Part shown: piece after piece, positions 4,071-40,135 of the stretch
Layout: every line of letters begins with the position of its first letter
Position numbering within the stretch: the first letter of the stretch is position 1
Source of the DNA: Felis catus
Taxonomy: Eukaryota
Length of the DNA: 64,000 bases
Assembly (NCBI RefSeq): GCF_018350175.1
Contig: NC_058386.1
Span: 126,480,001 to 126,544,000, forward strand
Reading direction: 5' to 3'
Position numbers and translations under genes: made by a program
Notes under the pieces: model-generated
The model's database searches: none
Told to the model about the DNA's origin: nothing
The model's input: the letters and a program-made list of their open reading frames with translations, nothing else

Positions 4071-4296
4071 TCATAGGTGAGAACTGATTGGCTACAGAAG
4101 GGACTGCTTGGTGGGAAAAAATCACAGGTCAGGAGGCATTACCAGTGGTCCGTGTGGACAGTTGCTCTGGGCATATCCGGAATTGCATTGTGGAGTAAAG
4201 GGGTGAAGCATTGTGAGAGAGCGCTTTGTCCTTCAGTGATGCCTTGAGAGGGTGGGCGGATTCAAAGTTGGGTCTCAGGTGGCTGGTGGAGGCCCC

Positions 4297-5461
4297 GTGA
4301 GGGCAGCAGACGAAGGCACGGGTGCCGTGGGCGTGGTGGTGGGCGCAGCAGGTGGTGGCCAGTGTGTGCCAGGTGGACCTCGTGGTGTCAGTGGCCCCAG
4401 AGTCCCTGGTGGTTCGGGTGGTGCCTGTGACCCTGGCCATCCCAGCAACCCCGGAGGCCTGAGCGATCCGGAAAGAACCAGCATTGTGGGAGAGGTAGGT
4501 GCCGCCGCTCTGGTGGCGCTCTCCAAATGGAGCGGGCGCCACCCTACACACCAGGTCCTGGTGGATGATGCCGCGCCTGGCGCTAGAGGTCCTGGAAACC
4601 GACTGCTTCAGTTGTATCCTATTCAAGGAGTCCCAGCGGGCTGGACGGCAGGGGGATGGGCTGGAGGTGGTCTGGCGCGCGGCGGGGTGGGGTGTGGGGG
4701 GGAGACTTGGGGAAGTGGAGTTGAAAGGGGAGCAGGAGGGAGCTCCGGGCACCTGGAGGGTATCGGCTAGGGTTTGGCCCGTGCTGACAGAGGATGGGGA
4801 GTGGGGTGGACCGCCTGATGGGGACTGAAGCGGTAGGGACAATGCTATCCGGGGTGGCCTGGCTGTATAGGGTGGGAGGTTGTGGACAGCCTGAGGGTCA
4901 GCCTGGGGTGGGGAAGGCAGGCCTCACTGAAGAGGAGGCCTGAGGCACAGGCAAAATTTAGTACTGTGGATGGTGCCTTAACCCAGTCTCCACCAGCACC
5001 CTCACTATACCTTTCCCCTCGGCCATGGATGCGGAGATTGCCCACAGGTTCCTGACTCCAAACGAGGAGCTCCAGGAGCCAGTTCGGGAGGAGCTCCATG
5101 TGAACGGCAGCATCCTGACTGTGTTAGTTCTAGAACGGTCCAGGGAGAGGGTGGTGGCAGGTGACCAGGGACAAGGTCAATTCCGGAGGAGCTGTAACGG
5201 AGACAAGGGAAACAGGAAAGGAGTGAGTCGAAGGAAGGAGTGTGGTGCTCTAGGATCGTTGCTGTGTGAAGGGGCGGAGCGGGGAATGTGCCCCACCGGC
5301 CCTCTAACTTGACTTATTTTTTCCTACCTCGTAGCCGCTTGACTGCCGATGACCCTGGCCAGCTCCAAATGTCCATCACCTCCTGTCTTGGCCAGCTTTC
5401 CCTAGTGATACGGGCCATGCAGATCATCATGCCCCCCTTTTTCACAAAGCCGCAGCAGTGA
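4297..5461 (+). CDS. CTAG1/CTAG2(NY-ESO-1/LAGE-1)-family gene A (Pcc1 domain); no in-frame ATG, GTG at homologous start; functional status uncertain
   Basis: Exons 4297-4613, 4997-5122, 5335-5461 splice to an open 189-aa frame. Exon 1 is Gly-rich and ends ARGPGNRLLQ(F). Exon 2 reads TLTIPFPSAMDAEIAHRFL...EELHVNGSILT. Exon 3 reads VRLTADDPGQLQMSITSCLGQLSLVIRAMQ. This resembles NY-ESO-1 ARGPESRLLEF...KEFTVSGNILTIRLTAADHRQLQLSISSCL. Both introns are phase 2. Confidence 0.7.
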
Positions 5462-6367
5462 AAAGGTGGCTGGACCCAACTCTGTGTCCCCCCCACATGA
5501 CAGTGATTCCTGCAGCAGCTGCCGTTTTCTTACTGAGGCCGCATCTTTTGCCTATACTGGCCCTTGGGTGCTTCAGATCCACATTTTTTTTTTTTTTTTT
5601 TTTTTTTTTTGGTGATCAAATGGTAACTGCTACTATTCTGTGTCTGGGTTTATTTTTAAAGCATCTACGCCTTCTCCTATTCTCGCCTTTGTTCTCAGGT
5701 AGGGGGAGAGATTCTGACATTCAGATACTCAAGTACTAGAAGGCAATTGAAGAAGACAAGTTAGGCGACGGGAGAAAAAAATTATGTCCTGTTATTCAGG
5801 ACATTAACTACTGTCAACATGTTAGAACTTTTGTTTTAGTTTTATACTAGCATGTACATAGTCATGTATAATACCTGCAGAGTAGGACTTTGTGGCTTCT
5901 CGGCCTTGATTCAGATCTGTGCAGAAGAGCGCTGGGACAGCTGGCTAGGTCGGCCCCACTGCCCATTCTATACTCCCGTGTCATCAGAGGCCTCATTCCC
6001 TGAGGTTCCGAACCCACAATTCTCAGAGCTCCTTGTGGTTGGCTCTCACTTGTATCATCCTTCCCCAAAGTGTTTTTCCAGTTTATTACGCTGCTGCTTG
6101 CTTCCCTGAAGTCCTGACAAGGGTCCTGGAGGAAAACAAAAAGGGGAAGAGGTCTCCCTGAGGTGGGGAGGGGACATGAAGTACATTACCCTTTGCCTTC
6201 CCCTCCAAGACTCTCTTATTTAGCACAACAGTGGGGCCACGTACAAGGCACCCGAGTGGCTGAGGAGGGGAATGGGCGACGCCCCGGTGCACGAGGTGAG
6301 TCTCTAAATCGGAGAGAGGAGGAACAGAGCCTTGCCTGAGGGAGAATTAGCAGTGTCAGCAGAGAGA

Positions 6368-6800
6368 GACTGAGCAGTGGAGAACGCCGTGACTCTATAG
6401 TTACGAATCTGTACCTGAGCGTCTCCAAATAGGTCCTCAGGACAAGTGAGGAAAGTAAAGGCACAGCTGCCTTGTCCTGGAGGCAGGTGTCACAGCAAGA
6501 AGGTGGCCAGTGTCTAGAGCGGCCTGTGGCTGGTGGAAGCATTTCAATGAGCAGTGTCACCAAAGAGCGCCTCAGCCTGAGCCTCGGACTGTCTCTGTCT
6601 GCCCTGTTCTTTGTCACTGCCTACGGGGCAGGCAGCTCTCATCTCCGGGCACGGGCAGGAGGAACCTGCAGCCGGAAAACAAGGATCTTTCAACACGTGC
6701 ACGTCTATAAACCCCGCCCTCGGCCGCCTCTCCAGCAGCTGCTGCCTCTCCAGCGGCTGCTCCCTCACCAATCGTCGCCACGCGCTGTGACGCGTGACCC
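6368..6800 (-). promoter_or_regulatory. Unidentified promoter-like element S (CCAAT, GC box, TATA-like); copies at 36840-37272 and 39790-40135
   Basis: On the mirror copy: ATTGG 36868-36872, GGGCGGGG 36921-36928 and TTTATA 36929-36934 in a CpG-rich setting. The third copy is truncated by L1. Confidence 0.4.
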
Positions 6801-7504
6801 CACTGCACCCACGCAAACCAGTCCCACCTCAGCTCCACCCCCTCCCCACACCCCTAGCCCCTCCCCAGACCTCGTGGGAGGCCGCCAGGCACCACGGCCT
6901 GTTGTCCAGAGGGCCCTGCCTCTTCCTTGGGCTCAGTGTCCCCAGCACGTGGGGCTCCACGACCTCGCAGCGGTTCGTGGAGGGAGATGGGCCACAGCCC
7001 AGACGGACACGGCCCCGCACCCCGTCCCCTTCCCCGGTACCGGTGGACACACCAAAGCGGCCTTTGGAGGGGGCGACTGAGCACAGGTGCGGATCAGATC
7101 GGCGGTCTGGGAAGGTCACGAAGGGGCTCCCGTCGGGGGGCAAGCCTGCCAGTAGCAGGCAAGGAGGAAAGGGATGGCGACTGGAGCTAAAGTAGTTAGT
7201 GGCCACGGAGAACAGGGATGCGGTCGCATAGGGAAAAACCACAGTGCAAAAGGGAAATCACTAAAATCCCAACTTAGGAAGCTACTGTATATGTGCACGG
7301 AAATCCTGCCACGGTAGCCTGAAGTGTAAACACCTCGTATGTCTGTGTGGTGGGATTGAGGGTGGTCCCCACTTCTTTTGTGTGCATTTCTCCCCCAAAA
7401 GGTTCAGAATGACTTTACATGACCTTTGGTGTTTTCAATTCTTTGACATCCTTGTGTGCGTGATCTCTACGCCCCACGTGGTGCGGCACTCACGACCCAG
7501 TGAG

Positions 7505-8610
7505 TGCTTCCACAAGTCAGGCTTGAGAGAGCAGATGATGCCATCCAGGGCGCCGGGCAGCAGCACTCCCCGCACCAACAGCACGACGAGGACCACGCAG
7601 GGGAAGGTAGCCGTGAAGTACACGATCTGGGGCGGGGGAGGGACGGGGGGGGTAACCTGCTCAGAAGGGGCCCTGCGGCCCCGCCTCCCCACTTAGGGGT
7701 CCCCAGCCTCAGCAGGGGGGCAGGCGGGCCACACTCCCCCCACTGTGGTACGGTCCACTCCGAGGTCAAGCGGGAGGCCAGCCTGCAGCCCCCCCTTCTA
7801 CTCCTCAGAGCCTGGGCTCCTCCCGAAGGAAGCGGGGTGCTCAGCTGGCCATCGGCTGCCCCCGCAAGGACAGGTCAGCTGTAGAGAGGGAGGGTGGAGG
7901 CAGGACCTTCCCCAGGTGGGGAGCAGGACATCGGCCTGGAGGCAGGTCCCATGCTTCCTGTGGTTCTCTGCACAGAGGCAGGGTCCTGGGCAGGACGGAG
8001 TGGACTGGGCCGGCCAGAGACAGAGGCGACAGCGAGGTGACCGCGAAGACCTCTGCCTCCGTCCCACCCTCAGCAGAGCAGGACAGGTAGGCAAAGGAGG
8101 GCCACGGGCCGGGTCCCCCCAGGCTGGCCGCAAAGCAGAGAGTGAGGAAGTAGTGAGTGAGGAAGAGAGGGAAACTGGGGCAGGGATGCCCGACACAGGC
8201 AAGTTCAGCTGGGGGTCGCCTGGGCCTGTCCCCTCAGGACGGAAGTCGGCTGGGCTGGAGTGTGGAGGTTGCGGAGCACTACCCAGGCACGCGTGGGAAA
8301 TCCACCGGGCTGGGTTCAAGGACCTGCCCCCGCCTCAGGCCCTGGCCCGGTCACCTCGCATGGCAGGGTCCACCTGCCCCCCCCTAGCGGAGACACCCCT
8401 TCTCCCCACCGGCCATGCTGCCCCCACCCCTGCCATCATCACCCACCCCGACCCGCCGGCCTCCAGCTGTACCTTTCCTGTTGACTTGACCCCCTTGCAG
8501 ACACAGAAGTAGGCCAGCACCCAGCAGGCCTGCAGACACAGGGTCACCTCCCAGTTGAGGGCCCCTGGCACGTCCAGCCCCCCCACCCCGAGAGCCGAAA
8601 GACTTTGTTC
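7505..8610 (-). pseudogene. SLC6A8: SLC6A8 (creatine transporter) fragment, exon 4 - intron 4 - most of exon 5
   Basis: Exon 4 at 8473-8610 ([36 protein letters not shown]) is 138 nt vs the canonical 133, so it is frameshifted. Exon 5 starts at 7626 ([31 protein letters not shown]) and breaks off before its donor. Confidence 0.93.
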
Positions 8611-9164
8611 CTGGGGGGAGGGGGGGACAGCCCGTCAGGGCTGCCGCAGCAGAGGGCAAAGCGACCGGGGAGCTGTCGCCGGGGCGGTGCTCCCCCGAGC
8701 CGCTGCCCTCAAGTCCAGGTGGGCCCCCCTGGGCCCCCGGCCCAAGCCCACAGCCATTGCAGTGGGAGGCAGGAGCCCGGGAGCCCCCGGCCGGAGGCCG
8801 GTCGCGCCCTCGGCGGTGTACCCTCCCCCAGGCTGGCAGGCACTAGGGGACTGACGGCGCCCGGGACCGACAAATGGTGAGGGAGCCAGGCCCATCCCTT
8901 CCAGCTCCCCTAGGGGCCGTGCGGGGTGTGCTCCCTGAGGACAGGCAGGGCCTGGGAGTGGCCCCTGCTCGGCATCCCGCGTAGGCCCCCCCCCCCGGCC
9001 CCCGGGTCGCAGGGCCCCCGGGACACGCAGACCCGAGCCGTACGGGGAGCCCACAGACAGGGACAGGCACGGTGCTGCCCAGAAGCGCCTGAGCGCGGCC
9101 CACGCCTCGATGCCCGGGACCGGGCGGGCGGCGGTCAGCTGGCTGCTGGCAAGTGCGCCCGGCT

Positions 9165-9398
9165 GGCGCCTGCGCAGACACAGGCTTGGGGGGAGGGGCG
9201 GGCCGGGCCGGAAACAGTCACGTGCCAGTGGCCTCACCAGAATGCTCTCGGGGACGTAGGAGCCCGACAGTGACGTCACGCGTCGGGGGGCGCAGCGTCC
9301 GGAACCAGCCTCCATCTCCTCGGGGTCAGCGTCGACCGGATCCAGGCTCTGCCGGCTCGGTGGCAACCAGCTCCGCGGGGTCTGTCTGCGCAGGCGCC
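9165..9398. promoter_or_regulatory. CpG-island promoter region of gene B (NRF1-like x2, GC box, E-box, full CRE); mirror 34238-34471
   Basis: GGCGCCTGCGCA 9165-9176, GTCACGTG 9217-9224, TGACGTCA 9271-9278, TGCGCAGGCGCC 9387-9398. Confidence 0.6.
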
Positions 9399-9524
9399 CT
9401 GGCCATCCCCGACAGCCTTGCGCGCCGAGGGGCCGGGCTTCGCGAGGCCTGCCAGGGGTCTCAGCGGTCGGCCGACAGTGGGCGCAGCGTAGCGGTGGGC
9501 TCTGAGGAGGCCGGTGCGGCGGCC

Positions 9525-10664
9525 ACGAGGGCCCCGGACGACGAAGCGGCCTCTCCGGCCCCGGACGACGGCGCGGAGGAAGTGGCGGTCACGCAGGCCC
9601 CTGACGATGACGGCGCGGACGGCGCGGCGGTCACGCGGGCTCCCGAGGGTGGCGCGGAGGACGCGGGGGCAGGCCCACAGGCCTCCGACGGAGGCACGGA
9701 CGGCCACGACCCCCAGCTTAGCCCCCGAGGTCCCGGTTGCCAGGGCAACTGCAGCCGCCACGATGGCGAGGGTGGCCCTGGCAGCAAGGGAGCAGTGGTC
9801 GAGGGGGCCTGCGCCCCTCCCCTGGCCGAACGGGCCCCGAGGGCCCTGGCCCCCGGTGGAGACGCAGCGCCGGCGGCGGCGGCGGTGACCTCCTCAGGAC
9901 TGCTGGAGTTGTATCCTTTCCGTGGAGCCTGTCTGGGCAGGGGCCGTGGCGGGGTGGCTGGGGAGCAGGGCGGCAGCCCGGGGACGGGACGGACGGGGGC
10001 GGGGGTGGGCAGCCTGGCGGGCCCCCAGGGTGGGGGAAGCGGCTCAGGGTGGGCAGAGGTGGCGGGAGGGAGCGCGAGTGTCCCGGGGGTAGAGGCGGGC
10101 CTCTGAGTGGTCAGGAGGCTTCAGGCCATGGGAACTCCAGGAGCCCGTTGTGCCTTAACCGGGTGCCTCCCAGCAGGCTCACTGTGTCTTTCCGGTCGCC
10201 CCTGGAGGCAGAGATGGCCCGCAGGGCCCTGACTACACACGTCCAACGCCACCGAGGGTTGGCTCAGAAGGAGCTTTGCGTGAGGGGCAGCGCCCTGGCC
10301 GTGTGAGTCCTCCAACAAGAGTATGCGCGGGACGGGTGGGCGGTGGCGGCGGGTGCCGTGGTCGCATCTCTGCCTTCCAGTGCCGTCGTGGAGGCCCCGA
10401 CGCACGCTGTTAGGTGGAAGGCGGGGGGGTGGGGGGTTGTGTGGGGGAAGGGGCTGGTGCCCTGCACCTCCACAGCAGGTCTCCCCTTTAACCGGATTTC
10501 CCTCTTCCCTCACTTCTAGGAGATGGACTACTGAAGACCCCATCTGCTTCCGAGTTTCCGTCAACTCCTTCTTGGACCGGCTTCCCCTGGTGATACGAAA
10601 CATTCGCGCCTTGGGGTCCCGGCCTCCGCGGCGCCTAGGTCCGGGAAAGGGGGCCGAGGCCTAA
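9525..10664 (+). CDS. LAGE3: LAGE3-like Pcc1-domain gene B; ACG at homologous start, no exon-1 ATG; functional status uncertain
   Basis: Exons 9525-9910, 10174-10302, 10520-10664 give an open 219-aa frame. Exons 2-3 read FRLTVSFRSPLEAEMARRAL...QKELCVRGSALAVRWTTEDPICFRVSVNSFLDRLPLVIRNI, resembling LAGE3 FTLSVPFPTPLEAEIAHGSL...VRWKAEDCRLLRISVINFLDQLSLVVRTM. It is convergent with a PLXNA3 3' end, as native LAGE3 is. Confidence 0.72.
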
Positions 10665-11955
10665 CCTGGTAGCCCTCACTGGGCAAGGCACGGGGCGTTG
10701 ACACTTGGCGTCCTCGCCACTTTACTATCGGGGGTCTAACGTTCTGCAGGTCCGGGCCTCGGTGGCTCTTGGCCCACTTCAGTTCCTTCCCTGCGCCCGG
10801 AGGGACGGGCGCTTACGTGTTTGTCACTGCACAACATGAAACTGAGCTACTCTTTTGTGTCCGAGTTTCTTCTCAGTTCCTGCGCCTCCACATTTTCTTA
10901 CCTTTGTTCTGGTGTTGGAAGGGAGGTTCTGGGAATCGTAGTCCAGCAGCCCAAGCTTATCGAAGACGACTCAGGGAGAGGAAAATCAGGTCCTATATTC
11001 AGCGGTAAATACTGCTGACGTTTTGGAATACGTTCCTAGTTGTATTTACCCGTTGAATGGATAGCAACGTATAACGTATCCATTTTCCAGTTTAGCGTTA
11101 ACTTTTCTCCGGATCCTTTTTGTTTCGTTTTGTTTTGTTTTTGTTTTTCCCCGTTGAACGTACTAGCTTTCCCACTCCCTAAAACCCTTCAAAAACTGTT
11201 ATCCAGGAGACACACAAATGTATTATTACATAATGTTGAGCAGTCGGGTCGTTCTCAGCTTTGCCCCTATTATGGGTCGTGTGAGTCAATGGGATTCTTG
11301 AACAGAAGTCTTTGCGCGAACAGTTACTTCCTTCAGATCGTTTCCAAGAGGTAGAATTCCCGCGTTCTATAGCTTCTCGGCACACAAGTGCTCTCCAGAA
11401 AAGGCGCCCCGCCGGCAGAAGTCTGGTCTCCCCGCATCACCAACCAGTAGGGTGGCTTCCTACCGAAGTAGAAGACTCCTTTTGTACCAGGGAAATAAGC
11501 ACGGAAACACTAGAATAGGAATTTTGGGGCTTACTGGCCTTGTTTCCGATGAGCAAGGGGGTGGTGCCACAAGTGGCTACGGGTTTGGGGGCGGGGTGGG
11601 GGGTGGTTAGCTCCCTCTGAGTAGCTTGTGTCTTGGAACCTCGCTAAACAGGAGTGCTAGCCTCACGAGGGTTCCCTCGGAGTTTCTACATGCATGGTCG
11701 TGATCTCTGCAAGCAAACACGGTTTTGGTTCCTTCCTTTCCGGCCTTGCCGGGGCTACGGGGGCGGGGGGAGGGAACAGGCTGACACTGGACAGATGGGA
11801 AGCAAGAGCAGGAAGGCACATGGCAGAGAACCAAATCCTGGATCCAGCCACGCCTGAAGACAGAACTATCCGCCCCCCGCCCCCGCCACAATCGTTCAGT
11901 TACACACATCCAGAAACTCTCCCTTTGGTTAAGCCAACATGAATCCTTTTTTTCT

Positions 11956-11995
<40 letters not shown>

Positions 11996-12019
11996 TCCCT
12001 TTCTCTTTTGTTTGAATGC

Positions 12020-12224
12020 TTTTATTTAGTGTTTGAGAGCAAGACAGAGACAGCGTGAGCGGGGAAGGGGCAGAGAGACAGAGAGGGAGACACAGAATCT
12101 GAGGCAGACTGCAGGCTCTGAGCTGTCGGCACAGAGCTCGACGCAGGGCTCAAACCCACGAACTGTGAGATCGTGACCTGAGCCGAAGTCAGACCCTCAA
12201 CCGACTGAGCCACCCAGGCACCCC
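12020..12224 (-). mobile_element. CanSINE (feliform type); mirror 31436-31640
   Basis: Contains gagatcgtgacctgagccgaagtcagaccctcaaccgactgagccacccaggcacc. Confidence 0.9.
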
Positions 12225-14481: not shown

Positions 14482-14577
14482 TTAGCTGTTGCCGGACAAG
14501 AGGCTGATGGTCTGTTCCAGGTTTTGCCCCAACTTAGGCTTCCGACAGGAGGCGTCTCGGTCCAGAGCGGTGAGGAC
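14482..14577 (-). pseudogene. PLXNA3: PLXNA3 terminal coding exon, orphan duplicate (3'UTR-derived sequence continues to lower coordinates)
   Basis: Preceded by a pyrimidine-rich acceptor. VLTALDRDASCRKPKLGQNLEQTISLLSGNS* vs recalled human PLXNA3 C-terminus ILTALDRDASCRKHKLRQKLEQIISLVSSDS* (23/31 identical). No upstream PLXNA3 exon recognised. Confidence 0.85.
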
Positions 14578-14869
14578 CTGGGGGAGGAGGGCCCCCCCGG
14601 AGCCGGGCTGGCGAGGAGGGGCCGCTCCCTCCCTTGCCAAGCCGTCCTCCCCTGCCTGAGCTCTTTTGTCCCTCCTGCGTCCACGCACCCCGCTCTCTGC
14701 GGGTCCCCGGCACGTGGGAAGGGCTGCAGCCCCCCACCTCTGCACACGCTGCGACTTGGCCACCCCGAAGCCACCGCCTTCTCTGCTCGGCGGCCACAGT
14801 GCGGCCCTTCCCGGGAGTGGTTTGGACCCGCTGTCCCCAAACGCCCCGTCCCCTCCTGGCCCACACCCC

Positions 14870-26277: not shown

Positions 26278-26476
26278 ATCTATCTATCTATCATCTAATC
26301 TGAATGAANNNNNNNNNNNNNNNNNNNNNNNNNNNNNNNNNNNNNNNNNNNNNNNNNNNNNNNNNNNNNNNNNNNNNNNNNNNNNNNNNNNNNNNNNNNN
26401 NNNNNNNNNNNNNNNNNNNNNNNNNNNNNNNNNNNNNNNNNNNNNNNNNNNNNNNNNNNNNNNNNNNNNNNNNNNN

Positions 26477-27251: not shown

Positions 27252-27282
<31 letters not shown>

Positions 27283-29178: not shown

Positions 29179-32100
29179 GGGTGGCGGAACCGGTGAGGAG
29201 GGGGCGTCCCAGGCCTGAGATGACCTCGGGGCCGAGCCCTGGATCGGGTGGCACGGGGGCGGGGATGGGGTGGTCACCGGACTCTCGTGCCCTGCGCACA
29301 CCCGGGCCCCCTTCATTAGTGCCTTTCTTTGGGCCCTGCGTGGGGGCGATGGTGACGGGACCAAGGGTCCTGACCTGGCAGCAGCAATATCCCCGCCCTC
29401 CCACCCTCGTGCCCCCGGGTCGTGCCAGCCCCTGCCCCCTCTTCCTGTTTATACCCCCAACCACCTATTTATTTAATTTATCTGCACCTCACCGTGTCCG
29501 TCTGTCACCACGTGCCCCTTCTCTGGGATGTGGACAACCTCACGCCCCTTCTGTCCTTGGGTCGTCCTGGCTCCCTGGTGGCACGGTCAGCCTCGGCCTC
29601 GCCTCTGGCACCTGCCCCTGGCCGTGGCCGGCCCCGCCGGGTCCGAGCAGGGGCCCCCGACACCAGCAGCACTTGATGGCGAGGAGGGGGGCGCCCAGGG
29701 TGATGCGGCGAAGCCGTCCCCAGACTGTGGCTGCGCCCAGGGGTCTCCCCGCGGCTGGGTCCCGGCATCCCCTCCGGACTTCTCGGGGGTCGGACCGTAC
29801 CTTTCTCGGGCGCCCTGTCCCCAGCACCTGGGGAGCTATGAGCGGGTTCGTGCCAGGGCCCCACGTGGGCCTGGGGGCTCTGGAAGTCTCCTTCTCCAGG
29901 CCCGAGCGCCCAGCTTCCTCGGCGTGGTGCCCGCTCAGCCCGGACCCCTCACCCCCGCTGCCCTGTCCTGCGCCCGCCCCGAGTGGCCGAGGCGGCAGTG
30001 CCTTACCCCTCTGTTCCCTCTTCCCCCTCCGAGGAATCTGGCCCCGGCGCGTGGTCCCGGAAACCCAGCTGTCCCCTCTGTTTTGGCATGAGCTTCTTTG
30101 TCGTTGTTCCTGGAACCTTGTTTCTGAATTAAACGTCGGGAAAACGGTGGCAGTGTGTGGCAGGTGGGTGGTCGGCGAGCAGGGAGGCAGGTGGGGAGGC
30201 TGTTGGACTCTGGAGGAGCTGGGCTCCCTTTGTGGGAGGAAGGGTGACCCGTTGCACGGGTCCCGCGCATCTGAGGAGGTCCAGGGCCACGTCCGATCCG
30301 TGCCAGCAAACCCCGGTGGCTCTCCCGTCAAGATCCGGTCGGAACCCGTTCCCTTCTCCCCACCTCCACTGGCCGCAGCCTGGGGGTCTCTCGCCTGCGT
30401 GCCAGTCTCCCCACTTCTGTCCTGCCTGCCCTCGTCCCCTTCCCAGCGCAGCAGGCACCGGGAACCTGATAAGACGTAAGCTGCATCCCGTCCCGCTCCG
30501 TTCAAGACTCCCTAGGGTCATCGACAGCACCCAAGCTCCTTCGTGTCCCACGACGCTTTACTGCCGCACGTGCACCTCCATGCTGACGGGCCCACCTGCT
30601 TCTTACCCCCCGACACCTGTGAAAGTAATGCAGGTGGGGAGAGCGTGGGACGCAACCTTAAGGAGAGCGGCCAGGAATGCTATTTGAGTGGGCCAGATGG
30701 AACCCCGGGGGACGAGAGGTCCAGGCAGGGAAGAGGCAGTGCAAGGGTCCTGAGGCAGGCCTGGGCCTGGTGTGTTTCAGAGAAGGGAGGAGGCCAGTGT
30801 GGCTGGATCCGAGAGTGAGCAAGGTGGAGAGGGGAGGGAAGGAGGCCGTGGAAGATGCGGGCCGGATCACATCTGACGCGGCGGGCCGCGGGGCAGGGCT
30901 CTGGCTCGTCTCTGGGAGGGGAGCCCGGGGACGCGTTGGAATCGACTTGTTTTGTGACCTGACTGACGTGTTAAGGCCGCCCGGCGCCTTCAGCAGTCCG
31001 TCTGTGGGGCCAGGGCGGTGGCCTAACTCTGGGCTTTGCTGGGAGAGGGAGGGAGGCTCACACTAAGTTCCGGTCTCTTGACGATCTGGCCCCACAATTC
31101 CGGGCCAGTCTTGGGAGCCCTATCCGGAAAGGGTGGGTCCCAGTGCCCCTTCTCTTTGTCCCTTTCCTCCAGCTGCCCCTTGCAGTCCCTCCCCTCCCTC
31201 TCTGGACTCTTACCCACAGAAGACTCTACCACCATACGGCTTGAAGGCCTACCAGCTAGGAGCCAATGCCTTTGTAAACTTAAAGAGCCCAGTTTCTCCG
31301 TTAAAAGAAGGGAGAGCCACGTTCTCAGGTGAAGTGACAAGAAAACCTACGGTTCCTCGAGTCAATAAAGGACAAGACTTTTCTATTACAAGTGAAGACA
31401 GACAAAAAGAAAAGCAAAAAAAAGTATTCACGACGGGGGTGCCTGGGTGGCTCAGTCGGTTGAGGGTCTGACTTCGGCTCAGGTCACGATCTCACAGTTC
31501 GTGGGTTTGAGCCCTGCGTCGAGCTCTGTGCCGACAGCTCAGAGCCTGCAGTCTGCCTCAGATTCTGTGTCTCCCTCTCTGTCTCTCTGCCCCTTCCCCG
31601 CTCACGCTGTCTCTGTCTTGCTCTCAAACACTAAATAAAAGCATTCAAACAAAAGAGAAAGGGAAAGAAAGAAAGAAAGAAGAAAAAAAGGATTCATGTT
31701 GGCTTAACCAAAGGGAGAGTTTCTGGATGTGTGTAACTGAACGATCGTGGCGGGGGCGGGGGGCGGATAGTTCTGTCTTCAGGCGTGGCTGGATCCAGGA
31801 TTTGGTTCTCTGCCATGTGCCTTCTTGCTCTTGCTTCCCATCTGTCCAGTGTCAGCCTGTTCCCTCCCCCCGCCCCCGTAGCCCCGGCAAGGCCGGAAAG
31901 GAAGGAACCAAAACCGTGTTTGCTTGCAGAGATCACGACCATGCATGTAGAAACTCCGAGGGAACCCTCGTGAGGCTAGCACTCCTGTTTAGCGAGGTTC
32001 CAAGACACAAGCTACTCAGAGGGAGCTAACCACCCCCCACCCCGCCCCCAAACCCGTAGCCACTTGTGGCACCACCCCCTTGCTCATCGGAAACAAGGCC

Positions 32101-32971
32101 AGTAAGCCCCAAAATTCCTATTCTAGTGTTTCCGTGCTTATTTCCCTGGTACAAAAGGAGTCTTCTACTTCGGTAGGAAGCCACCCTACTGGTTGGTGAT
32201 GCGGGGAGACCAGACTTCTGGCGGCGGGGCGCCTTTTCTGGAGAGCACTTGTGTGCCGAGAAGCTATAGAACGCGGGAATTCTACCTCTTGGAAACGATC
32301 TGAAGGAAGTAACTGTTCGCGCAAAGACTTCTGTTCAAGAATCCCATTGACTCACACGACCCATAATAGGGGCAAAGCTGAGAACGACCCGACTGCTCAA
32401 CATTATGTAATAATACATTTGTGTGTCTCCTGGATAACAGTTTTTGAAGGGTTTTAGGGAGTGGGAAAGCTAGTACGTTCAACGGGGAAAAACAAAAACA
32501 AAACAAAACGAAACAAAAAGGATCCGGAGAAAAGTTAACGCTAAACTGGAAAATGGATACGTTATACGTTGCTATCCATTCAACGGGTAAATACAACTAG
32601 GAACGTATTCCAAAACGTCAGCAGTATTTACCGCTGAATATAGGACCTGATTTTCCTCTCCCTGAGTCGTCTTCGATAAGCTTGGGCTGCTGGACTACGA
32701 TTCCCAGAACCTCCCTTCCAACACCAGAACAAAGGTAAGAAAATGTGGAGGCGCAGGAACTGAGAAGAAACTCGGACACAAAAGAGTAGCTCAGTTTCAT
32801 GTTGTGCAGTGACAAACACGTAAGCGCCCGTCCCTCCGGGCGCAGGGAAGGAACTGAAGTGGGCCAAGAGCCACCGAGGCCCGGACCTGCAGAACGTTAG
32901 ACCCCCGATAGTAAAGTGGCGAGGACGCCAAGTGTCAACGCCCCGTGCCTTGCCCAGTGAGGGCTACCAGG

Positions 32972-34111
32972 TTAGGCCTCGGCCCCCTTTCCCGGACCTA
33001 GGCGCCGCGGAGGCCGGGACCCCAAGGCGCGAATGTTTCGTATCACCAGGGGAAGCCGGTCCAAGAAGGAGTTGACGGAAACTCGGAAGCAGATGGGGTC
33101 TTCAGTAGTCCATCTCCTAGAAGTGAGGGAAGAGGGAAATCCGGTTAAAGGGGAGACCTGCTGTGGAGGTGCAGGGCACCAGCCCCTTCCCCCACACAAC
33201 CCCCCACCCCCCCGCCTTCCACCTAACAGCGTGCGTCGGGGCCTCCACGACGGCACTGGAAGGCAGAGATGCGACCACGGCACCCGCCGCCACCGCCCAC
33301 CCGTCCCGCGCATACTCTTGTTGGAGGACTCACACGGCCAGGGCGCTGCCCCTCACGCAAAGCTCCTTCTGAGCCAACCCTCGGTGGCGTTGGACGTGTG
33401 TAGTCAGGGCCCTGCGGGCCATCTCTGCCTCCAGGGGCGACCGGAAAGACACAGTGAGCCTGCTGGGAGGCACCCGGTTAAGGCACAACGGGCTCCTGGA
33501 GTTCCCATGGCCTGAAGCCTCCTGACCACTCAGAGGCCCGCCTCTACCCCCGGGACACTCGCGCTCCCTCCCGCCACCTCTGCCCACCCTGAGCCGCTTC
33601 CCCCACCCTGGGGGCCCGCCAGGCTGCCCACCCCCGCCCCCGTCCATCCCGTCCCCGGGCTGCCGCCCTGCTCCCCAGCCACCCCGCCACGGCCCCTGCC
33701 CAGACAGGCTCCACGGAAAGGATACAACTCCAGCAGTCCTGAGGAGGTCACCGCCGCCGCCGCCGGCGCTGCGTCTCCACCGGGGGCCAGGGCCCTCGGG
33801 GCCCGTTCGGCCAGGGGAGGGGCGCAGGCCCCCTCGACCACTGCTCCCTTGCTGCCAGGGCCACCCTCGCCATCGTGGCGGCTGCAGTTGCCCTGGCAAC
33901 CGGGACCTCGGGGGCTAAGCTGGGGGTCGTGGCCGTCCGTGCCTCCGTCGGAGGCCTGTGGGCCTGCCCCCGCGTCCTCCGCGCCACCCTCGGGAGCCCG
34001 CGTGACCGCCGCGCCGTCCGCGCCGTCATCGTCAGGGGCCTGCGTGACCGCCACTTCCTCCGCGCCGTCGTCCGGGGCCGGAGAGGCCGCTTCGTCGTCC
34101 GGGGCCCTCGT
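32972..34111 (-). CDS. LAGE3: LAGE3-like gene B' (mirror of B); ACG at homologous start
   Basis: Exons 33726-34111, 33334-33462, 32972-33116 with the same spliced protein as B. It has a private ATG in intron 1 at 33647. Confidence 0.72.
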
Positions 34112-35027
34112 GGCCGCCGCACCGGCCTCCTCAGAGCCCACCGCTACGCTGCGCCCACTGTCGGCCGACCGCTGAGACCCCTGGCAGGCCTCGCGAAGCC
34201 CGGCCCCTCGGCGCGCAAGGCTGTCGGGGATGGCCAGGGCGCCTGCGCAGACAGACCCCGCGGAGCTGGTTCCCACCGAGCCGGCAGAGCCTGGATCCGG
34301 TCGACGCTGACCCCGAGGAGATGGAGGCTGGTTCCGGACGCTGCGCCCCCCGACGCGTGACGTCACTGTCGGGCTCCTACGTCCCCGAGAGCATTCTGGT
34401 GAGGCCACTGGCACGTGACTGTTTCCGGCCCGGCCCGCCCCTCCCCCCAAGCCTGTGTCTGCGCAGGCGCCAGCCGGGCGCACTTGCCAGCAGCCAGCTG
34501 ACCGCCGCCCGCCCGGTCCCGGGCATCGAGGCGTGGGCCGCGCTCAGGCGCTTCTGGGCAGCACCGTGCCTGTCCCTGTCTGTGGGCTCCCCGTACGGCT
34601 CGGGTCTGCGTGTCCCGGGGGCCCTGCGACCCGGGGGCCGGGGGGGGGGGGGCCTACGCGGGATGCCGAGCAGGGGCCACTCCCAGGCCCTGCCTGTCCT
34701 CAGGGAGCACACCCCGCACGGCCCCTAGGGGAGCTGGAAGGGATGGGCCTGGCTCCCTCACCATTTGTCGGTCCCGGGCGCCGTCAGTCCCCTAGTGCCT
34801 GCCAGCCTGGGGGAGGGTACACCGCCGAGGGCGCGACCGGCCTCCGGCCGGGGGCTCCCGGGCTCCTGCCTCCCACTGCAATGGCTGTGGGCTTGGGCCG
34901 GGGGCCCAGGGGGGCCCACCTGGACTTGAGGGCAGCGGCTCGGGGGAGCACCGCCCCGGCGACAGCTCCCCGGTCGCTTTGCCCTCTGCTGCGGCAGCCC
35001 TGACGGGCTGTCCCCCCCTCCCCCCAG

Positions 35028-36134
35028 GAACAAAGTCTTTCGGCTCTCGGGGTGGGGGGGCTGGACGTGCCAGGGGCCCTCAACTGGGAGGTGACCCTGT
35101 GTCTGCAGGCCTGCTGGGTGCTGGCCTACTTCTGTGTCTGCAAGGGGGTCAAGTCAACAGGAAAGGTACAGCTGGAGGCCGGCGGGTCGGGGTGGGTGAT
35201 GATGGCAGGGGTGGGGGCAGCATGGCCGGTGGGGAGAAGGGGTGTCTCCGCTAGGGGGGGGCAGGTGGACCCTGCCATGCGAGGTGACCGGGCCAGGGCC
35301 TGAGGCGGGGGCAGGTCCTTGAACCCAGCCCGGTGGATTTCCCACGCGTGCCTGGGTAGTGCTCCGCAACCTCCACACTCCAGCCCAGCCGACTTCCGTC
35401 CTGAGGGGACAGGCCCAGGCGACCCCCAGCTGAACTTGCCTGTGTCGGGCATCCCTGCCCCAGTTTCCCTCTCTTCCTCACTCACTACTTCCTCACTCTC
35501 TGCTTTGCGGCCAGCCTGGGGGGACCCGGCCCGTGGCCCTCCCTTGCCTACCTGTCCTGCTCTGCTGAGGGTGGGACGGAGGCAGAGGTCTTCGCGGTCA
35601 CCTCGCTGTCGCCTCTGTCTCCGGCCGGCCCAGTCCACTCTGTCCTGCCCAGGACCCTGCCTCTGTGCAGAGAACCACAGGAGGCATGGGACCTGCCTCC
35701 AGGCCGATGTCCTGCTCCCCACCCGGGGAAGGTCCTGCCTCCGCCCTCCCTCTCTACAGCTGACCTGTCCTTGCGGGGGCGGCCGGTGGCCAGCTGAGCA
35801 CCCCGCTTCCTTCGGGAGGAGCCCAGGCTCTGAGGAGTAGAAGGGGGGGCTGCAGGCTGGCCTCCCGCTTGACCTCGGAGCGGACCGTACCACAGTGGGG
35901 GGAGTGTGGCCCGCCTGCCCCCCTGCTGAGGCTGGGGACCCCTAAGTGGGGAGGCGGGGCCGCAGGGCCCCTTCTGAGCAGGTTACCCCCCCCCCGTCCC
36001 TCCCCCGCCCCAGATCGTGTACTTCACGGCTACCTTCCCCTGCGTGGTCCTCGTCGTGCTGTTGGTGCGGGGAGTGCTGCTGCCCGGCGCCCTGGATGGC
36101 ATCATCTGCTCTCTCAAGCCTGACTTGTGGAAGC
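35028..36134 (+). pseudogene. SLC6A8: SLC6A8 fragment, exon 4 to partial exon 5 (mirror of 7505-8610)
   Basis: Exon 4 at 35028-35165, exon 5 from 36014. Similarity is lost after ...ctcaagcctgacttgtggaagc. Confidence 0.93.
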
Positions 36135-38177
36135 ACTCACTGGGTCGTGAGTGCCGCACCACGTGGGGCGTAGAGATCACGCACACAAGGATGTCAAAGA
36201 ATTGAAAACACCAAAGGTCATGTAAAGTCATTCTGAACCTTTTGGGGGAGAAATGCACACAAAAGAAGTGGGGACCACCCTCAATCCCACCACACAGACA
36301 TACGAGGTGTTTACACTTCAGGCTACCGTGGCAGGATTTCCGTGCACATATACAGTAGCTTCCTAAGTTGGGATTTTAGTGATTTCCCTTTTGCACTGTG
36401 GTTTTTCCCTATGCGACCGCATCCCTGTTCTCCGTGGCCACTAACTACTTTAGCTCCAGTCGCCATCCCTTCCCTCCTTGCCTGCTACTGGCAGGCTTGC
36501 CCCCCGACGGGAGCCCCTTCGTGACCTTCCCAGACCGCCGATCTGATCCGCACCTGTGCTCAGTCGCCCCCTCCAAAGGCCGCTGTGGTGTGTCCACCGG
36601 TACCGGGGAAGGGGACGGGGTGCGGGGCCGTGTCCGTCTGGGCTGTGGCCCATCTCCCTCCACGAACCGCTGCGAGGTCGTGGAGCCCCACGTGCTGGGG
36701 ACACTGAGCCCAAGGAAGAGGCAGGGCCCTCTGGACAACAGGCCGTGGTGCCTGGCGGCCTCCCACGAGGTCTGGGGAGGGGCTAGGGGTGTGGGGAGGG
36801 GGTGGAGCTGAGGTGGGACTGGTTTGCGTGGGTGCAGTGGGGTCACGCGTCACAGCGCGTGGCGACGATTGGTGAGGGAGCAGCCGCTGGAGAGGCAGCA
36901 GCTGCTGGAGAGGCGGCCGAGGGCGGGGTTTATAGACGTGCACGTGTTGAAAGATCCTTGTTTTCCGGCTGCAGGTTCCTCCTGCCCGTGCCCGGAGATG
37001 AGAGCTGCCTGCCCCGTAGGCAGTGACAAAGAACAGGGCAGACAGAGACAGTCCGAGGCTCAGGCTGAGGCGCTCTTTGGTGACACTGCTCATTGAAATG
37101 CTTCCACCAGCCACAGGCCGCTCTAGACACTGGCCACCTTCTTGCTGTGACACCTGCCTCCAGGACAAGGCAGCTGTGCCTTTACTTTCCTCACTTGTCC
37201 TGAGGACCTATTTGGAGACGCTCAGGTACAGATTCGTAACTATAGAGTCACGGCGTTCTCCACTGCTCAGTCTCTCTCTGCTGACACTGCTAATTCTCCC
37301 TCAGGCAAGGCTCTGTTCCTCCTCTCTCCGATTTAGAGACTCACCTCGTGCACCGGGGCGTCGCCCATTCCCCTCCTCAGCCACTCGGGTGCCTTGTACG
37401 TGGCCCCACTGTTGTGCTAAATAAGAGAGTCTTGGAGGGGAAGGCAAAGGGTAATGTACTTCATGTCCCCTCCCCACCTCAGGGAGACCTCTTCCCCTTT
37501 TTGTTTTCCTCCAGGACCCTTGTCAGGACTTCAGGGAAGCAAGCAGCAGCGTAATAAACTGGAAAAACACTTTGGGGAAGGATGATACAAGTGAGAGCCA
37601 ACCACAAGGAGCTCTGAGAATTGTGGGTTCGGAACCTCAGGGAATGAGGCCTCTGATGACACGGGAGTATAGAATGGGCAGTGGGGCCGACCTAGCCAGC
37701 TGTCCCAGCGCTCTTCTGCACAGATCTGAATCAAGGCCGAGAAGCCACAAAGTCCTACTCTGCAGGTATTATACATGACTATGTATATGCTAGTATAAAA
37801 CTAAAACAAAAGTTCTAACATGTTGACAGTAGTTAATGTCCTGAATAACAGGACATAATTTTTTTCTCCCGTCGCCTAACTTGTCTTCTTCAATTGCCTT
37901 CTAGTACTTGAGTATCTGAATGTCAGAATCTCTCCCCCTACCTGAGAACAAAGGCGAGAATAGGAGAAGGCGTAGATGCTTTAAAAATAAACCCAGACAC
38001 AGAATAGTAGCAGTTACCATTTGATCACCAAAAAAAAAAAAAAAAAAAAAAAAAATGTGGATCTGAAGCACCCAAGGGCCAGTATAGGCAAAAGATGCGG
38101 CCTCAGTAAGAAAACGGCAGCTGCTGCAGGAATCACTGTCATGTGGGGGGGACACAGAGTTGGGTCCAGCCACCTTT

Positions 38178-39334
38178 TCACTGCTGCGGCTTTGTGAAAA
38201 AGGGGGGCATGATGATCTGCATGGCCCGTATCACTAGGGAAAGCTGGCCAAGACAGGAGGTGATGGACATTTGGAGCTGGCCAGGGTCATCGGCAGTCAA
38301 GCGGCTACGAGGTAGGAAAAAATAAGTCAAGTTAGAGGGCCGGTGGGGCACATTCCCCGCTCCGCCCCTTCACACAGCAACGATCCTAGAGCACCACACT
38401 CCTTCCTTCGACTCACTCCTTTCCTGTTTCCCTTGTCTCCGTTACAGCTCCTCCGGAATTGACCTTGTCCCTGGTCACCTGCCACCACCCTCTCCCTGGA
38501 CCGTTCTAGAACTAACACAGTCAGGATGCTGCCGTTCACATGGAGCTCCTCCCGAACTGGCTCCTGGAGCTCCTCGTTTGGAGTCAGGAACCTGTGGGCA
38601 ATCTCCGCATCCATGGCCGAGGGGAAAGGTATAGTGAGGGTGCTGGTGGAGACTGGGTTAAGGCACCATCCACAGTACTAATTTTGCCTGTGCCTCAGGC
38701 CTCCTCTTCAGTGAGGCCTGCCTTCCCCACCCCAGGCTGACCCTCAGGCTGTCCACAACCTCCCACCCTATACAGCCAGGCCACCCCGGATAGCATTGTC
38801 CCTACCGCTTCAGTCCCATCAGGCGGTCCACCCCACTCCCCATCCTCTGTCAGCACGGGCCAAACCCTAGCCGATACCCTCCAGGTGCCCGGAGCTCCCT
38901 CCTGCTCCCCTTTCAACTCCACTTCCCCAAGTCTCCCCCCCACACCCCACCCCGCCGCGCGCCAGACCACCTCCAGCCCATCCCCCTGCCGTCCAGCCCG
39001 CTGGGACTCCTTGAATAGGATACAACTGAAGCAGTCGGTTACCAGGACCTCTAGCGCCAGGCGCGGCATCTCCACCAGGACCTGGTGTGTAGGGTGCCCG
39101 CTCCATTTGGAGAGCGCCACCAGAGGCGGCACCTACCTCTCCCACAATGCTGGTTCTTTCCGGATCGCTCAGGCCTCCGGGGTTGCTGGGATGGCCAGGG
39201 TCACAGGCACCACCCGAACCACCAGGGACTCTGGGGCCACTGACACCACGAGGTCCACCTGGCACACACTGGCCACCACCTGCTGCGCCCACCACCACGC
39301 CCACGGCACCCGTGCCTTCGTCTGCTGCCCTCAC
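38178..39334 (-). CDS. CTAG-family gene A' (mirror of A); GTG at homologous start plus an in-frame internal ATG at 39106
   Basis: Exons 39024-39334, 38517-38642, 38178-38304. Gives 187 aa from GTG, or 111 aa from ATG 39106 (MERAPYTPGPGGDAAPGARGPGNRLLQF...). Confidence 0.75.
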
Positions 39335-40135
39335 GGGGCCTCCACCAGCCACCTGAGACCCAACTTTGAATCCGCCCACCCTCTCAAGGCATCACTGAAG
39401 GACAAAGCGCTCTCTCACAATGCTTCACCCCTTTACTCCACAATGCAATTCCGGATGCCCAGAGCAACTGTCCACACGGACCACTGGTAATGCCTCCTGA
39501 CCTGTGATTGGTTCCCACCAAGCAGTCCCTTCTGTAGCCAATCAGTTCTCACCTATGAAGCTCCACCCCTTAGAGTGCCACGACACCCTAGGGCGTCTGC
39601 CCAAATGGGCACCCGCGTCGATGCGTCTGCCTGAACCAGCCGTGCCACGAGCCTTCGACGGCCCGCCAGCTGCGATATCCAGGAAGCCTCTGCCTGACAC
39701 TACTCCCCACACGGTGGTGCGGCTCATGGTCCCCACTGTCCATGCCCAAACAGACTGCCATGGCCCAACTCCTAAAGCCTCTGAGCACGTGACTGAGCTG
39801 TGTAGAACTCCGTGACTCTATAGTCACGAATCTGTACCTGAGCGTCTCCGAATAGGTCCTCAGGACAAGTGAGGAAAGTAAAGGCACAGCTGCCTTGTCC
39901 TGGAGGCAGGTGTCACAGCAAGAAGGTGGCCAGTGTCTAGAGCGGCCTGTGGCTGGTGGAAGCATTTCAATGAGCAGTGTCACCAAAGAGCGCCTCAGCC
40001 TGAGCCTCGGACTGTCTCTGTCTGCCCTGTTCTTTGTCACTGTCTACGGGGCAGGCAGCTCTCATCTCCGGGCACGGGCAGGAGGAACCTGCAGCCGGAA
40101 AACAAGGATCTTTCAACACATGCGTGTCTATAAAC

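What the first reader, a model, noticed from the sequence alone, without database searches (positions are those of the whole stretch)
4071..39558. ~11 kb near-perfect palindrome carrying two CTAG/LAGE genes per arm
Seen: arms 4071-~14960 and ~28700-39558 are reverse complements with only scattered differences. The ~12-13 kb spacer contains intact gene C. Established: mammalian X palindromes are enriched for testis genes, homogenised by arm-to-arm gene conversion, and human CTAG1A/CTAG1B lie in an Xq28 inverted repeat. Here the arm content (no IKBKG exons seen) differs from the human repeat. Inference: an independently derived palindrome at a similar locus, with spacer inversion polymorphism expected.
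Basis: partly seen in the sequence, partly recalled or inferred. Interest (0 to 1): 0.7.

Follow-up and report, generated by a model that had tools for sequence, protein, structure and literature searches.

The report
Cat X-chromosome cancer-testis gene palindrome
This is a real mirror-image duplication of cancer-testis (CTAG/LAGE) genes on the cat X chromosome, at the same place as a known human palindrome; its arms are likely about 34 kb rather than 11 kb, because the window's left arm stops at a likely assembly gap, and they are likely kept near-identical by gene conversion.

Summary
The inverted repeat is real (4070-15523 vs 39559-28116, 99.7% outside the tandem repeat), but its outer end is not the arm end. 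The left copy starts at a 500-N run. DNA left of the run is the reverse complement of window 17028-62424, and an unplaced contig carries the left arm at least 7 kb further. Most likely one palindrome: ~34.3-kb arms, 12.6-kb spacer, assembled with the spacer in both orientations; a true four-arm array is not excluded. Each full arm holds three ancient CTAG/LAGE paralogs (A, B, E), an olfactory pseudogene and PLXNA3/SLC6A8 fragments, no IKBKG. A second, 99.7%-similar cluster lies 100 kb distal. Copies differ by 0-1 residues within felid species and 6-11 between, as concerted evolution predicts. B's start codon reads ACG in all seven assembled copies but Met in big cats and Geoffroy's cat. The region is already catalogued as ampliconic in cat, human and mouse; my searches found no description of its inner anatomy. 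Independent origin versus shared ancestry with human P25 is unresolved.

The parts
1..3569 (-). End of the left contig: reverse-complement copy of spacer 17028-20592; probably the same physical spacer assembled twice
   Evidence: 0 substitutions, 9 small indel events vs 17028-20592; 8 of the 9 are absent from C56
3570..4069 (.). 500-N run, most likely a scaffolding gap (inferred; cannot be told from a mask directly)
   Evidence: Both flanks break in mid-repeat, both carry clustered private indels, and C56 runs through both break positions without a break
4070..15523 (+). Left-type inner arm, truncated at the N run
   Evidence: 18 of its 21 substitutions against the right arm are reproduced exactly in C56; 3 substitutions and 6 indels within 890 bp of the N run are not
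4297..5461 (+). Gene A, left copy (exons to 4613, 4997-5122, 5335-5461); apparent frameshifts are likely consensus errors
   Evidence: the C56 left-type copy has the same 111-aa frame as the right copy
6741..7498 (+). Duplicated piece of the DNA upstream of LAGE3 (95%)
7506..9234 (-). SLC6A8 genomic fragment (exons plus introns) with a 107-bp piece of E's upstream region, head-to-head with B
9525..10664 (+). Gene B, left copy; ACG at the ancestral start, frame otherwise open (218 codons)
13202..15156 (-). Copy of the 3' end of the gene proximal to LAGE3 (PLXNA3, named by gene order and a recalled C-terminus)
   Evidence: no Pfam hit for the 29-aa piece
14836..16330 (.). Tandem repeat at the left arm/spacer junction (long form), homologous to a repeat in the PLXNA3 locus
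15524..28115 (.). Spacer, 12.6 kb
23745..24844 (-). Gene C, intact 178-aa CTAG/LAGE paralog (exons 24844-24576, 24261-24133, 23883-23745)
   Evidence: orthologues in cheetah, lynx, leopard, dog, pig, camel, bats; Pcc1 in the cheetah orthologue
28116..62424 (-). Complete right arm, 34.3 kb; its mirror image lies at G000:C47 about 126,438,188-126,472,481
28521..30458 (+). PLXNA3 3' fragment incl. short tandem repeat; 99.0% to the parent over 28830-30458
32972..34111 (-). Gene B, right copy; ACG start site (exons to 33726, 33462-33334, 33116-32972)
34402..36134 (+). SLC6A8 fragment, about 11% diverged from the parent, 4.5% from the copy beside E
36142..36899 (-). LAGE3-upstream piece (95%)
38178..39334 (-). 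Gene A, right copy; GTG at the likely ancestral start (39334), first ATG at 39106 gives 111 aa
46140..47079 (+). Frameshifted olfactory-receptor pseudogene
   Evidence: 7tm_4, E 4e-22
51612..52726 (-). Gene E, intact 186 aa, best candidate CTAG1 orthologue (exons 52726-52434, 52092-51964, 51750-51612)
52997..56986 (+). SLC6A8 genomic pseudogene fragment, 93% to the parent about 0.8 Mb away, head-to-head with E
   Evidence: (SNF, E 1e-13)

Best explanation
The window shows part of a real X-linked inverted duplication of CTAG/LAGE (Pcc1-domain) genes between IKBKG and GAB3, most likely a single palindrome with ~34.3-kb arms and a 12.6-kb spacer whose arms are likely homogenised by gene conversion. 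Shown: the inverted repeat, its extension to 62424 and to 41.8 kb left of the window, two distinguishable inner-arm types joined to opposite spacer ends, the gene content, and a second cluster 100 kb distal. Inferred: the 500-N run is a scaffold gap; the contig left of it slipped from the left arm into the right arm inside a ~4-kb stretch with no seen difference (43894-48167) and entered the spacer backwards, so about 23 kb appears twice. Mechanism (inferred): the arms pair intrachromosomally in the male germ line; non-crossover repair copies patches from arm to arm and, less often, between clusters and from the parent PLXNA3 and SLC6A8 loci; crossover would flip the spacer with gene C without changing copy number. 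The arms are a mosaic of an ancient placental cluster of paralogs (A, B, C, E) plus carnivore-age fragments; intact E and C are the likely targets of selection. Testis-biased expression is expected by analogy and from one published transcript, but was not shown here.
For: Two arm types: 18 of 18 inner left/right substitutions are reproduced in an independently assembled contig, and the tandem repeats at the two junctions differ. Left/right divergence is similar along the whole arm: 36 substitutions in 18,041 bp for inner plus middle arm, 19 in about 14.8 kb of outer arm. In contrast the three assembled copies of spacer plus right inner/middle arm have 0 substitutions over 17028-48167, as expected of one molecule assembled three times. 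Private indels cluster on both sides of the N run. In 47595-56393, C56 has 1 private substitution (in an error-rich stretch) against 11 and 4 for the other two copies, so it looks like a mixed consensus rather than a third arm. Patchy homogenisation: 9 of 36 differences fall in 400 bp; 0 of 20,000 random placements match that. E proteins differ by 0-1 residues among copies within a species (3 of 3 within-species pairs differ by 1; others share one record) and by 6-11 from the cat protein in 11 of 11 non-cat records. Tiger has four identical B accessions on one chromosome, the number this model predicts. Arm DNA has 2.2-2.6 times the word depth of single-locus contigs in 2 of 2 other animals. 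Palindrome P25 at the orthologous locus was missing from 3 of 4 primate assemblies listed (PMC8327919 supplement).
Against: No read spans the gap. The depth ratio is rough: sex unknown, reference contigs hand-picked and SINE-bearing, and the tool states it is no copy number; it fits 4 to 6 copies in a male and cannot separate the models. Other felid assemblies list 4-5 E and up to 4 C copies, more than the 3 and 2 of this model, so more units can exist. The longest identical left/right stretch (2,977 bp) is not significant on its own (1,117 of 20,000). No DNA from other felids was available, so concerted evolution rests on proteins from annotated assemblies that may share the same assembly faults. 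No RNA support for B: depth at most 0.22 over its exons in 2 of 2 RNA runs (1-2% of each read, tissue unknown). E as CTAG1 orthologue has 89/81 support only, and A-type is not rejected (p-AU 0.061).
Confidence: 0.62

Rival explanations
1. A real four-arm (nested) array: arm, inverted spacer, arm, hidden centre, arm, spacer, arm. The N run hides tens of kb and C56 is part of it.
For: The assembly shows the spacer in both orientations. Other felids list 4-5 E copies and up to 4 C copies on one contig. Macaque P25 has 103-kb arms with 4 CTAG1 copies. Depth of 2.2-2.6 lies between 4 and 6 male copies.
Against: It needs two physical copies with 0 substitutions over 31 kb next to outer parts that differ by about 0.15%, while left and right arm types differ by 0.2%. 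C56's outer part matches neither flank copy. Tiger has 4 B copies, not 6.
Confidence: 0.25
2. The junction at the N run is a real rearrangement (duplication-inverted triplication type) or a real spacer-inversion haplotype mixed into the assembly.
For: Inverted repeats in Xq28 give such products and recurrent inversions in humans (PMC7263195 passages; PMC8327919 discussion).
Against: C56 runs through both break positions without a break; private indel errors flank the run on both sides.
Confidence: 0.08
3. The whole inverted repeat is a false duplication of one arm (two alleles or an assembly echo).
For: The left copy sits at a contig end beside an N run, and a redundant unplaced contig exists.
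Against: Each arm type has its own junction to an opposite end of the spacer in two contigs; 18 of 18 differences replicate; both outer ends run into different unique flanks; multi-copy depth in two other animals; multi-copy annotation across felids.
Confidence: 0.03
4. On origin (independent of the assembly question): the inverted pair is inherited from the common ancestor with primates, with CTAG1/E as the constant core and arm boundaries turning over, rather than arising anew in carnivores.
For: E, the best CTAG1 orthologue, is in both arms; same IKBKG-GAB3 interval; region 12 is ampliconic in human, cat and mouse; P25 arm content already differs between human and macaque (35 vs 103 kb).
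Against: No shared non-coding arm sequence was tested (no human DNA available). Cat arms lack IKBKG and carry 88-99%-identical PLXNA3/SLC6A8/LAGE3 pieces, so much of the present structure is young. Pig has no ampliconic entry for region 12. E lies 23 kb from the spacer; human CTAG1 about 4.5 kb (coordinates).
Confidence: 0.35

Closest known systems
Human X palindrome P25 (CTAG1A/CTAG1B, IKBKG/IKBKGP; PMC8327919)
   Same: Orthologous interval next to IKBKG; arms of similar size (35.4 kb vs 34.3 kb); >99% arm identity; a CTAG1-type gene in each arm; hard to assemble.
   Different: Cat arms have no IKBKG exons, carry two more ancient paralogs (A, B), an olfactory pseudogene and PLXNA3/SLC6A8 fragments; the spacer (12.6 vs 21.8 kb) has its own CTAG/LAGE gene; a second near-identical cluster lies 100 kb away.
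Cat ampliconic region 12 (X v9.1 128.89-129.30 Mb; PMC8327908 Tables S3, S4, S7, S12, S14)
   Same: Same locus; already listed as ampliconic, with an SLC6A8-like duplicate, an olfactory-like and a CTAG1-like transcript.
   Different: The main text has 0 occurrences of CTAG, LAGE, IKBKG, palindrom, inverted or SLC6A8; no arm/spacer anatomy, paralog classes or start-codon change are given in the parts I saw.
FLNA-EMD inverted repeats (P24; Caceres 2007, known to me only as cited in PMC8327919)
   Same: Inverted repeats at one Xq28 locus across mammals with arm sequence that is not orthologous, leaving common versus independent origin open.
   Different: There the genes lie in the spacer; here multi-copy genes lie in the arms.
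LAGE3/Pcc1 subunit of the KEOPS/EKC t6A complex (PMC3418287 passages)
   Same: Pcc1 domain, three exons with the same intron phases.
   Different: A, B, C, E are only about 35-55% identical to LAGE3 per exon and form separate clades; the true LAGE3 lies 135 kb proximal. KEOPS activity was not tested.

Membership tests
Large mammalian X palindrome (criteria of PMC8327919) | Inverted repeat with arms longer than 8 kb | tested here: met
   11.5 kb in the window, at least 18.8 kb in C56, 34.3 kb against the left contig
Large mammalian X palindrome (criteria of PMC8327919) | More than 99% arm-to-arm identity | tested here: met
   36 substitutions in 18,041 bp, 0.20%; 98% only if the junction tandem repeat is counted
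Large mammalian X palindrome (criteria of PMC8327919) | Structure verified by single molecules spanning arm-spacer-arm | not testable with these tools
   Only short-read contigs were offered for DNA; C56 spans inner arm-spacer-inner arm as an assembly, not a read
Large mammalian X palindrome (criteria of PMC8327919) | Arm-to-arm divergence below between-species divergence | tested here: inconclusive
   Met at protein level (0-1 vs 6-11 residues for E); no DNA of other felids available
Large mammalian X palindrome (criteria of PMC8327919) | Testis-biased genes (typical, not required) | tested here: inconclusive
   No B reads in 2 RNA runs of unknown tissue; published CTAG1-like cat transcript 135.9 and 16.2 FPKM in testes vs 3.9-27.4 elsewhere, paralog unknown
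Orthologue of human palindrome P25 | Same interval (IKBKG-GAB3) | tested here: met
   (motifs recalled)
Orthologue of human palindrome P25 | CTAG1 orthologue in both arms | tested here: inconclusive
   E groups with orangutan and macaque CTAG1 at 89/81; B-type rejected (p 0.002), C-type marginally (0.042), A-type not (0.061)
Orthologue of human palindrome P25 | IKBKG exons in the arms | tested here: not met
   2 of 2 IKBKG exons tested occur once, outside the arms
Orthologue of human palindrome P25 | Alignable non-coding arm and flank sequence | not testable with these tools
   No human or other mammalian DNA could be fetched
CTAG/LAGE (Pcc1, PF09341) family | Pcc1 domain above the curated cut-off | tested here: met
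   E 59.3 bits, cheetah C 39.7, tiger B 55.3 (cut-off 20.9); A exon 2 35.4 bits, but no hit for the same exon alone
CTAG/LAGE (Pcc1, PF09341) family | Three exons with LAGE3 intron positions and phases | tested here: met
   All 23 modelled copies share the donor motif and phases; these are predictions, no spliced reads seen
KEOPS subunit LAGE3 (function) | Binds OSGEP and supports t6A synthesis | not tested
   No claim of binding is made; no complex job was run

The most novel reading that the evidence does not exclude
The cat palindrome is the ~90-million-year-old counterpart of human P25: an inverted CTAG1 pair beside IKBKG has persisted since the primate-carnivore split while arm boundaries and passengers turned over. 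In the cat lineage gene conversion has carried a start-codon loss (ATG to ACG) into every copy of paralog B across both clusters, either silencing a gene that is intact in big cats and Geoffroy's cat or switching it to non-AUG initiation.
Probability: 0.3. Interest if true: 0.65.

Novelty: new member of a known kind. Interest (0 to 1): 0.4.

Why it matters
It gives a concrete non-primate, non-rodent case for the open question of how old X palindromes are and whether they recur or persist at one locus. It shows a placental-wide set of at least four CTAG/LAGE paralog classes, of which the sampled primate proteins represent one. It offers a datable example of a damaging-looking change (B start codon) shared by all copies of an amplicon. 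It also flags a likely 23-kb false duplication plus a redundant contig in this assembly, which inflates annotated gene counts. The kind of structure and the ampliconic status of the locus are already known, which caps the interest.

Tried and rejected
1) A supposed expressed 'gene D' at the inner arm end: no Pfam hit in 5 of 5 long frames; it is a 99% copy of the PLXNA3 3' end, so the RNA reads at 29870-30281 are most simply from the parent gene and were not counted as expression. 2) A second IKBKG copy on contig C16: no DNA likeness to the X locus beyond repeats; probably optineurin (inference); dropped. 3) Third Pcc1 hit at C47:78.38 Mb: intronless with a stop and a frameshift, a processed LAGE3 pseudogene. 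4) Using published cat X v9.1 coordinates to decide between two and four arms: that assembly is about 100 kb shorter between IKBKG and GAB3, so it does not decide. 5) Using the extra PLXNA3 copy as a per-copy depth unit: gave values at odds with the autosomal reference; not used. 6) tblastx of the IKBKG region against the window gave only chained low-identity or SINE pieces. 7) Read evidence at the 39559 boundary and over the spacer was not obtained, so the copy-number question stays open. 8) Earlier notes of this scan: nothing in 3 of 3 look-ups. 9) The 159-row tree is a quick tree on 92 columns; 48 of 207 rows were dropped for covering under 78% of the domain or as duplicates; the 34-row careful tree used rows chosen after seeing the first tree, so its groups are not independent. 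10) PMC7204298 passages had nothing on CTAG. No structure or complex prediction was run, as neither bears on the claim.
Full report
1. Observation. A self-comparison gives one large inverted repeat, 4070-15523 against 39559-28116, 98.05% over 11,495 columns. Over 4070-14860 there are 21 substitutions (15 transitions) and 10 indel events; the rest lies in a tandem repeat at the inner ends.

2. Larger structure. Gene B DNA occurs 7 times in G000: 5 on the window's chromosome and 2 on unplaced contig C56. With 100 kb proximal and 200 kb distal fetched, the 45 kb left of the N run is the reverse complement of 17028-62424. C56 reads right arm, spacer, left arm without a break, and carries the left-type arm 7.3 kb past the position equivalent to 4070. 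The outer ends run into different unique flanks at 62424 and -41812 in window coordinates. So the arm is about 34.3 kb and the spacer 12.6 kb. A second cluster at 165562-216463 holds another spacer, B twice, A, E and a young LAGE3 duplicate (F); it differs from the window by 73 substitutions in 24 kb and 34 in the spacer. IKBKG ends about 33 kb proximal of the left arm and GAB3 ends just distal of the second cluster (flanking genes located with recalled motifs).

3. What is physical and what is assembly. Two inner-arm types are real: 18 of the 21 substitutions of the window's left arm are reproduced exactly in C56, and the other 3 plus 6 indels lie within 890 bp of the N run and only in the window copy. 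On the other side, 8 of 9 indel events in 1-3569 are absent from C56. This is the pattern of contig ends, so I read the run as a scaffold gap (inference; an exact 500 is a common scaffolder gap size, recalled). Left and right arm types differ by about 0.2% in the inner and middle arm and by 19 substitutions in the outer 14.8 kb, whereas the three assembled copies of spacer plus right inner and middle arm have 0 substitutions over 17028-48167. The simplest reading is one physical palindrome assembled from both sides. C56's outer part has 1 private substitution against 11 and 4 in the other copies, which fits a mixed consensus. A four-arm array remains possible. Depth does not decide: contigs of 2 other animals from 2 studies give word depth 16.3-18.7 and 80.3-89 over the inner arm, against medians of 7.2 (11 values) and 35.9 (14 values) for SINE-bearing single-locus contigs that I picked from the same output, a ratio of 2.2-2.6. 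Sex is unknown and the tool says this is no copy number. It does exclude single copy. I laid 4 of the 24 runs listed, on 28840-35000 only.

4. Arm content. Four CTAG/LAGE paralogs share LAGE3's three-exon layout: C in the spacer (178 aa, intact), and A, B and E in each arm. E (186 aa) is identical to proteins labelled Felis catus cancer/testis antigen 1-like. The arm also holds a frameshifted olfactory receptor, two SLC6A8 genomic fragments (88% and 93% to the parent 0.8 Mb away), a LAGE3-upstream piece (95%) and the 3' end of the gene proximal to LAGE3, 99.0% over 1.6 kb, which gene order identifies as PLXNA3; in PMC8327908 Table S4 the cat PLXNA3 annotation stretches 207 kb into the amplicon. 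The junction tandem repeat is homologous to a repeat at that locus. Two IKBKG exons tested are single-copy.

5. Paralog history. A profile search returned 377 relatives, the best 150 listed. On the Pcc1 domain (92 columns) A, B, C and E fall in separate groups with horse, deer and armadillo (A), sloth, rhinoceros, squirrel, jerboa, meerkat and hyena (B), dog, pig, camel, squirrel and bats (C), and orangutan, macaque, camel, warthog and fruit bat (E). The classes therefore likely predate the placental radiation. Support is strong for B (99/96) and C (100/99), weak for A (82/75) and E (82/88); E with primate CTAG1 has 89/81. Forcing primate CTAG1 with B is rejected (p-AU 0.002), with C marginally (0.042), with A not (0.061).

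6. Concerted evolution. Differences between arms are patchy: 9 of 36 lie within 400 bp (0 of 20,000 random placements). In one 1.7-kb segment left and right arms share alleles absent from the distal cluster. E is annotated 2-5 times in tiger, clouded leopard, Geoffroy's cat, leopard cat and fishing cat (the tool lists at most 4 accessions a record), with 0-1 residue differences within species and 6-11 against the cat. Tiger has four identical B accessions. Intron divergence of the long SLC6A8 fragment from its parent falls from 15.5% at its 5' end to 1.2% at its 3' end, which suggests later conversion or re-duplication from the parent (inference).

7. Start codons. B reads ACG at the site homologous to C's ATG in 7 of 7 assembled copies; A reads GTG in 6 of 6. 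B orthologues have Met there in jaguar, tiger, leopard, clouded leopard and Geoffroy's cat; 6 of 7 members of the unnamed cat-like cluster have Thr, and the contigs of both other animals show no other letter at the site. B's frame is otherwise intact, with 10 differences from big-cat B in about 210 residues, against 7 in 170 for C and 6 in 185 for E. Silencing and non-AUG initiation both fit. Two RNA runs of unknown tissue (1-2% read) show no B reads to speak of.

8. How it likely works. By the mechanism established for primate X palindromes (PMC8327919: passages, section 4, first part of the discussion and supplement hits seen; PMC11890787 passages), the arms pair within one chromatid, conversion keeps them alike, and crossover inverts the spacer without copy change; human inversions between inverted repeats are mostly recurrent (PMC7263195 passages). 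Applied to the cat locus these steps are inferred. The proteins are Pcc1-domain relatives of the KEOPS subunit LAGE3; human LAGE1/LAGE2 are testis and tumour antigens (PMC3418287 passages). Their function in cat is untested.

9. What is known. Human P25 has 35.4-kb arms with CTAG1 and IKBKG, chimpanzee 35.4 kb, macaque 103 kb with 4 CTAG1 copies. PMC8327908 (abstract and outline, a term search of the main text, supplement hits and one supplement part seen; supplementary file 1 could not be searched and may hold figures of this region) lists the cat region as ampliconic and shared with human and mouse, with an SLC6A8-like duplicate and a CTAG1-like transcript. Eight paper searches (listings only, apart from the papers named) found no account of the cat palindrome's anatomy; subscription papers, including work on recent felid assemblies, are outside the library. 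Aradhya 2001 and Caceres 2007 were not read. The strand of human CTAG1A/B, the PLXNA3 C-terminus and the ILK name are recalled.

10. Verdict. Real feature, wrong boundaries, known kind. New member of the X-palindrome class at a locus already known to be ampliconic. Interest 0.4; the deep-ancestry plus shared start-codon-loss reading has probability 0.3 and would merit 0.65.

Noticed in passing
G000:C47:126,645,562-126,696,463 (L027-L032): Second CTAG/LAGE cluster about 100 kb distal, about 99.7% identical by substitutions, with its own outward-facing inverted repeat (about 10-kb arms) and copies of C, B (two), A, E.
   Followed up: partly
G000:C47:126,667,634-126,668,745: Gene F: young genomic duplicate of LAGE3 (92% DNA over 4 kb), intact 175 aa, branch 0.31 vs 0.03 for LAGE3; fast change after duplication.
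   Followed up: partly
window 13202-15156 and 28521-30458; parent G000:C47:126,338,810-126,340,419: PLXNA3 3' copies are 99% identical to the parent and some are inverted to it about 130-155 kb away; they could serve as substrates to invert the LAGE3-UBL4A-FAM3A-G6PD-IKBKG block (inference).
   Followed up: partly
window 52997-56986: Intron divergence of the SLC6A8 pseudogene fragment from its parent drops from 15.5% to 1.2% along 4 kb, suggesting long-range conversion or stepwise duplication.
   Followed up: partly
window 34111, 9525, 39334, 4297: Both inner-arm genes have near-cognate codons (ACG in B, GTG in A) at the likely ancestral start in every copy, while C, E, F and LAGE3 have ATG.
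   Followed up: partly
G000:C56:1-59649 (L011-L016): Unplaced contig wholly redundant with the palindrome core; many insertion errors near its start; adds annotated gene copies.
   Followed up: yes
window about 47270-47640: Short intronless kinase-like fragment resembling ILK (name recalled, not tested), present in each full arm.
   Followed up: no
G000:C47 about 126,546,600-126,547,800 and 126,607,000-126,608,000: Long olfactory-receptor-like open frames between the two clusters (named by eye).
   Followed up: no
window 39791-40135 vs 36928-37272 and 6368-6712: 345-bp internal inverted duplicate (97%) flanking gene A inside each arm.
   Followed up: no
window 62424 and its mirror 41.8 kb left of the window: The outer arm end falls inside an L2-like element that seems to continue on the IKBKG side, which would make the left arm the older site (pattern recalled).
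   Followed up: no
L043:4238-4559: Processed LAGE3 pseudogene elsewhere on the chromosome.
   Followed up: yes
PMC8327908 Table S3 (cat X v9.1 128.97-129.02 Mb): That study places CTAG1-like and olfactory-like transcripts proximal of PLXNA3, where G000 searches show no such copy; either a patching fault or a different arrangement.
   Followed up: no
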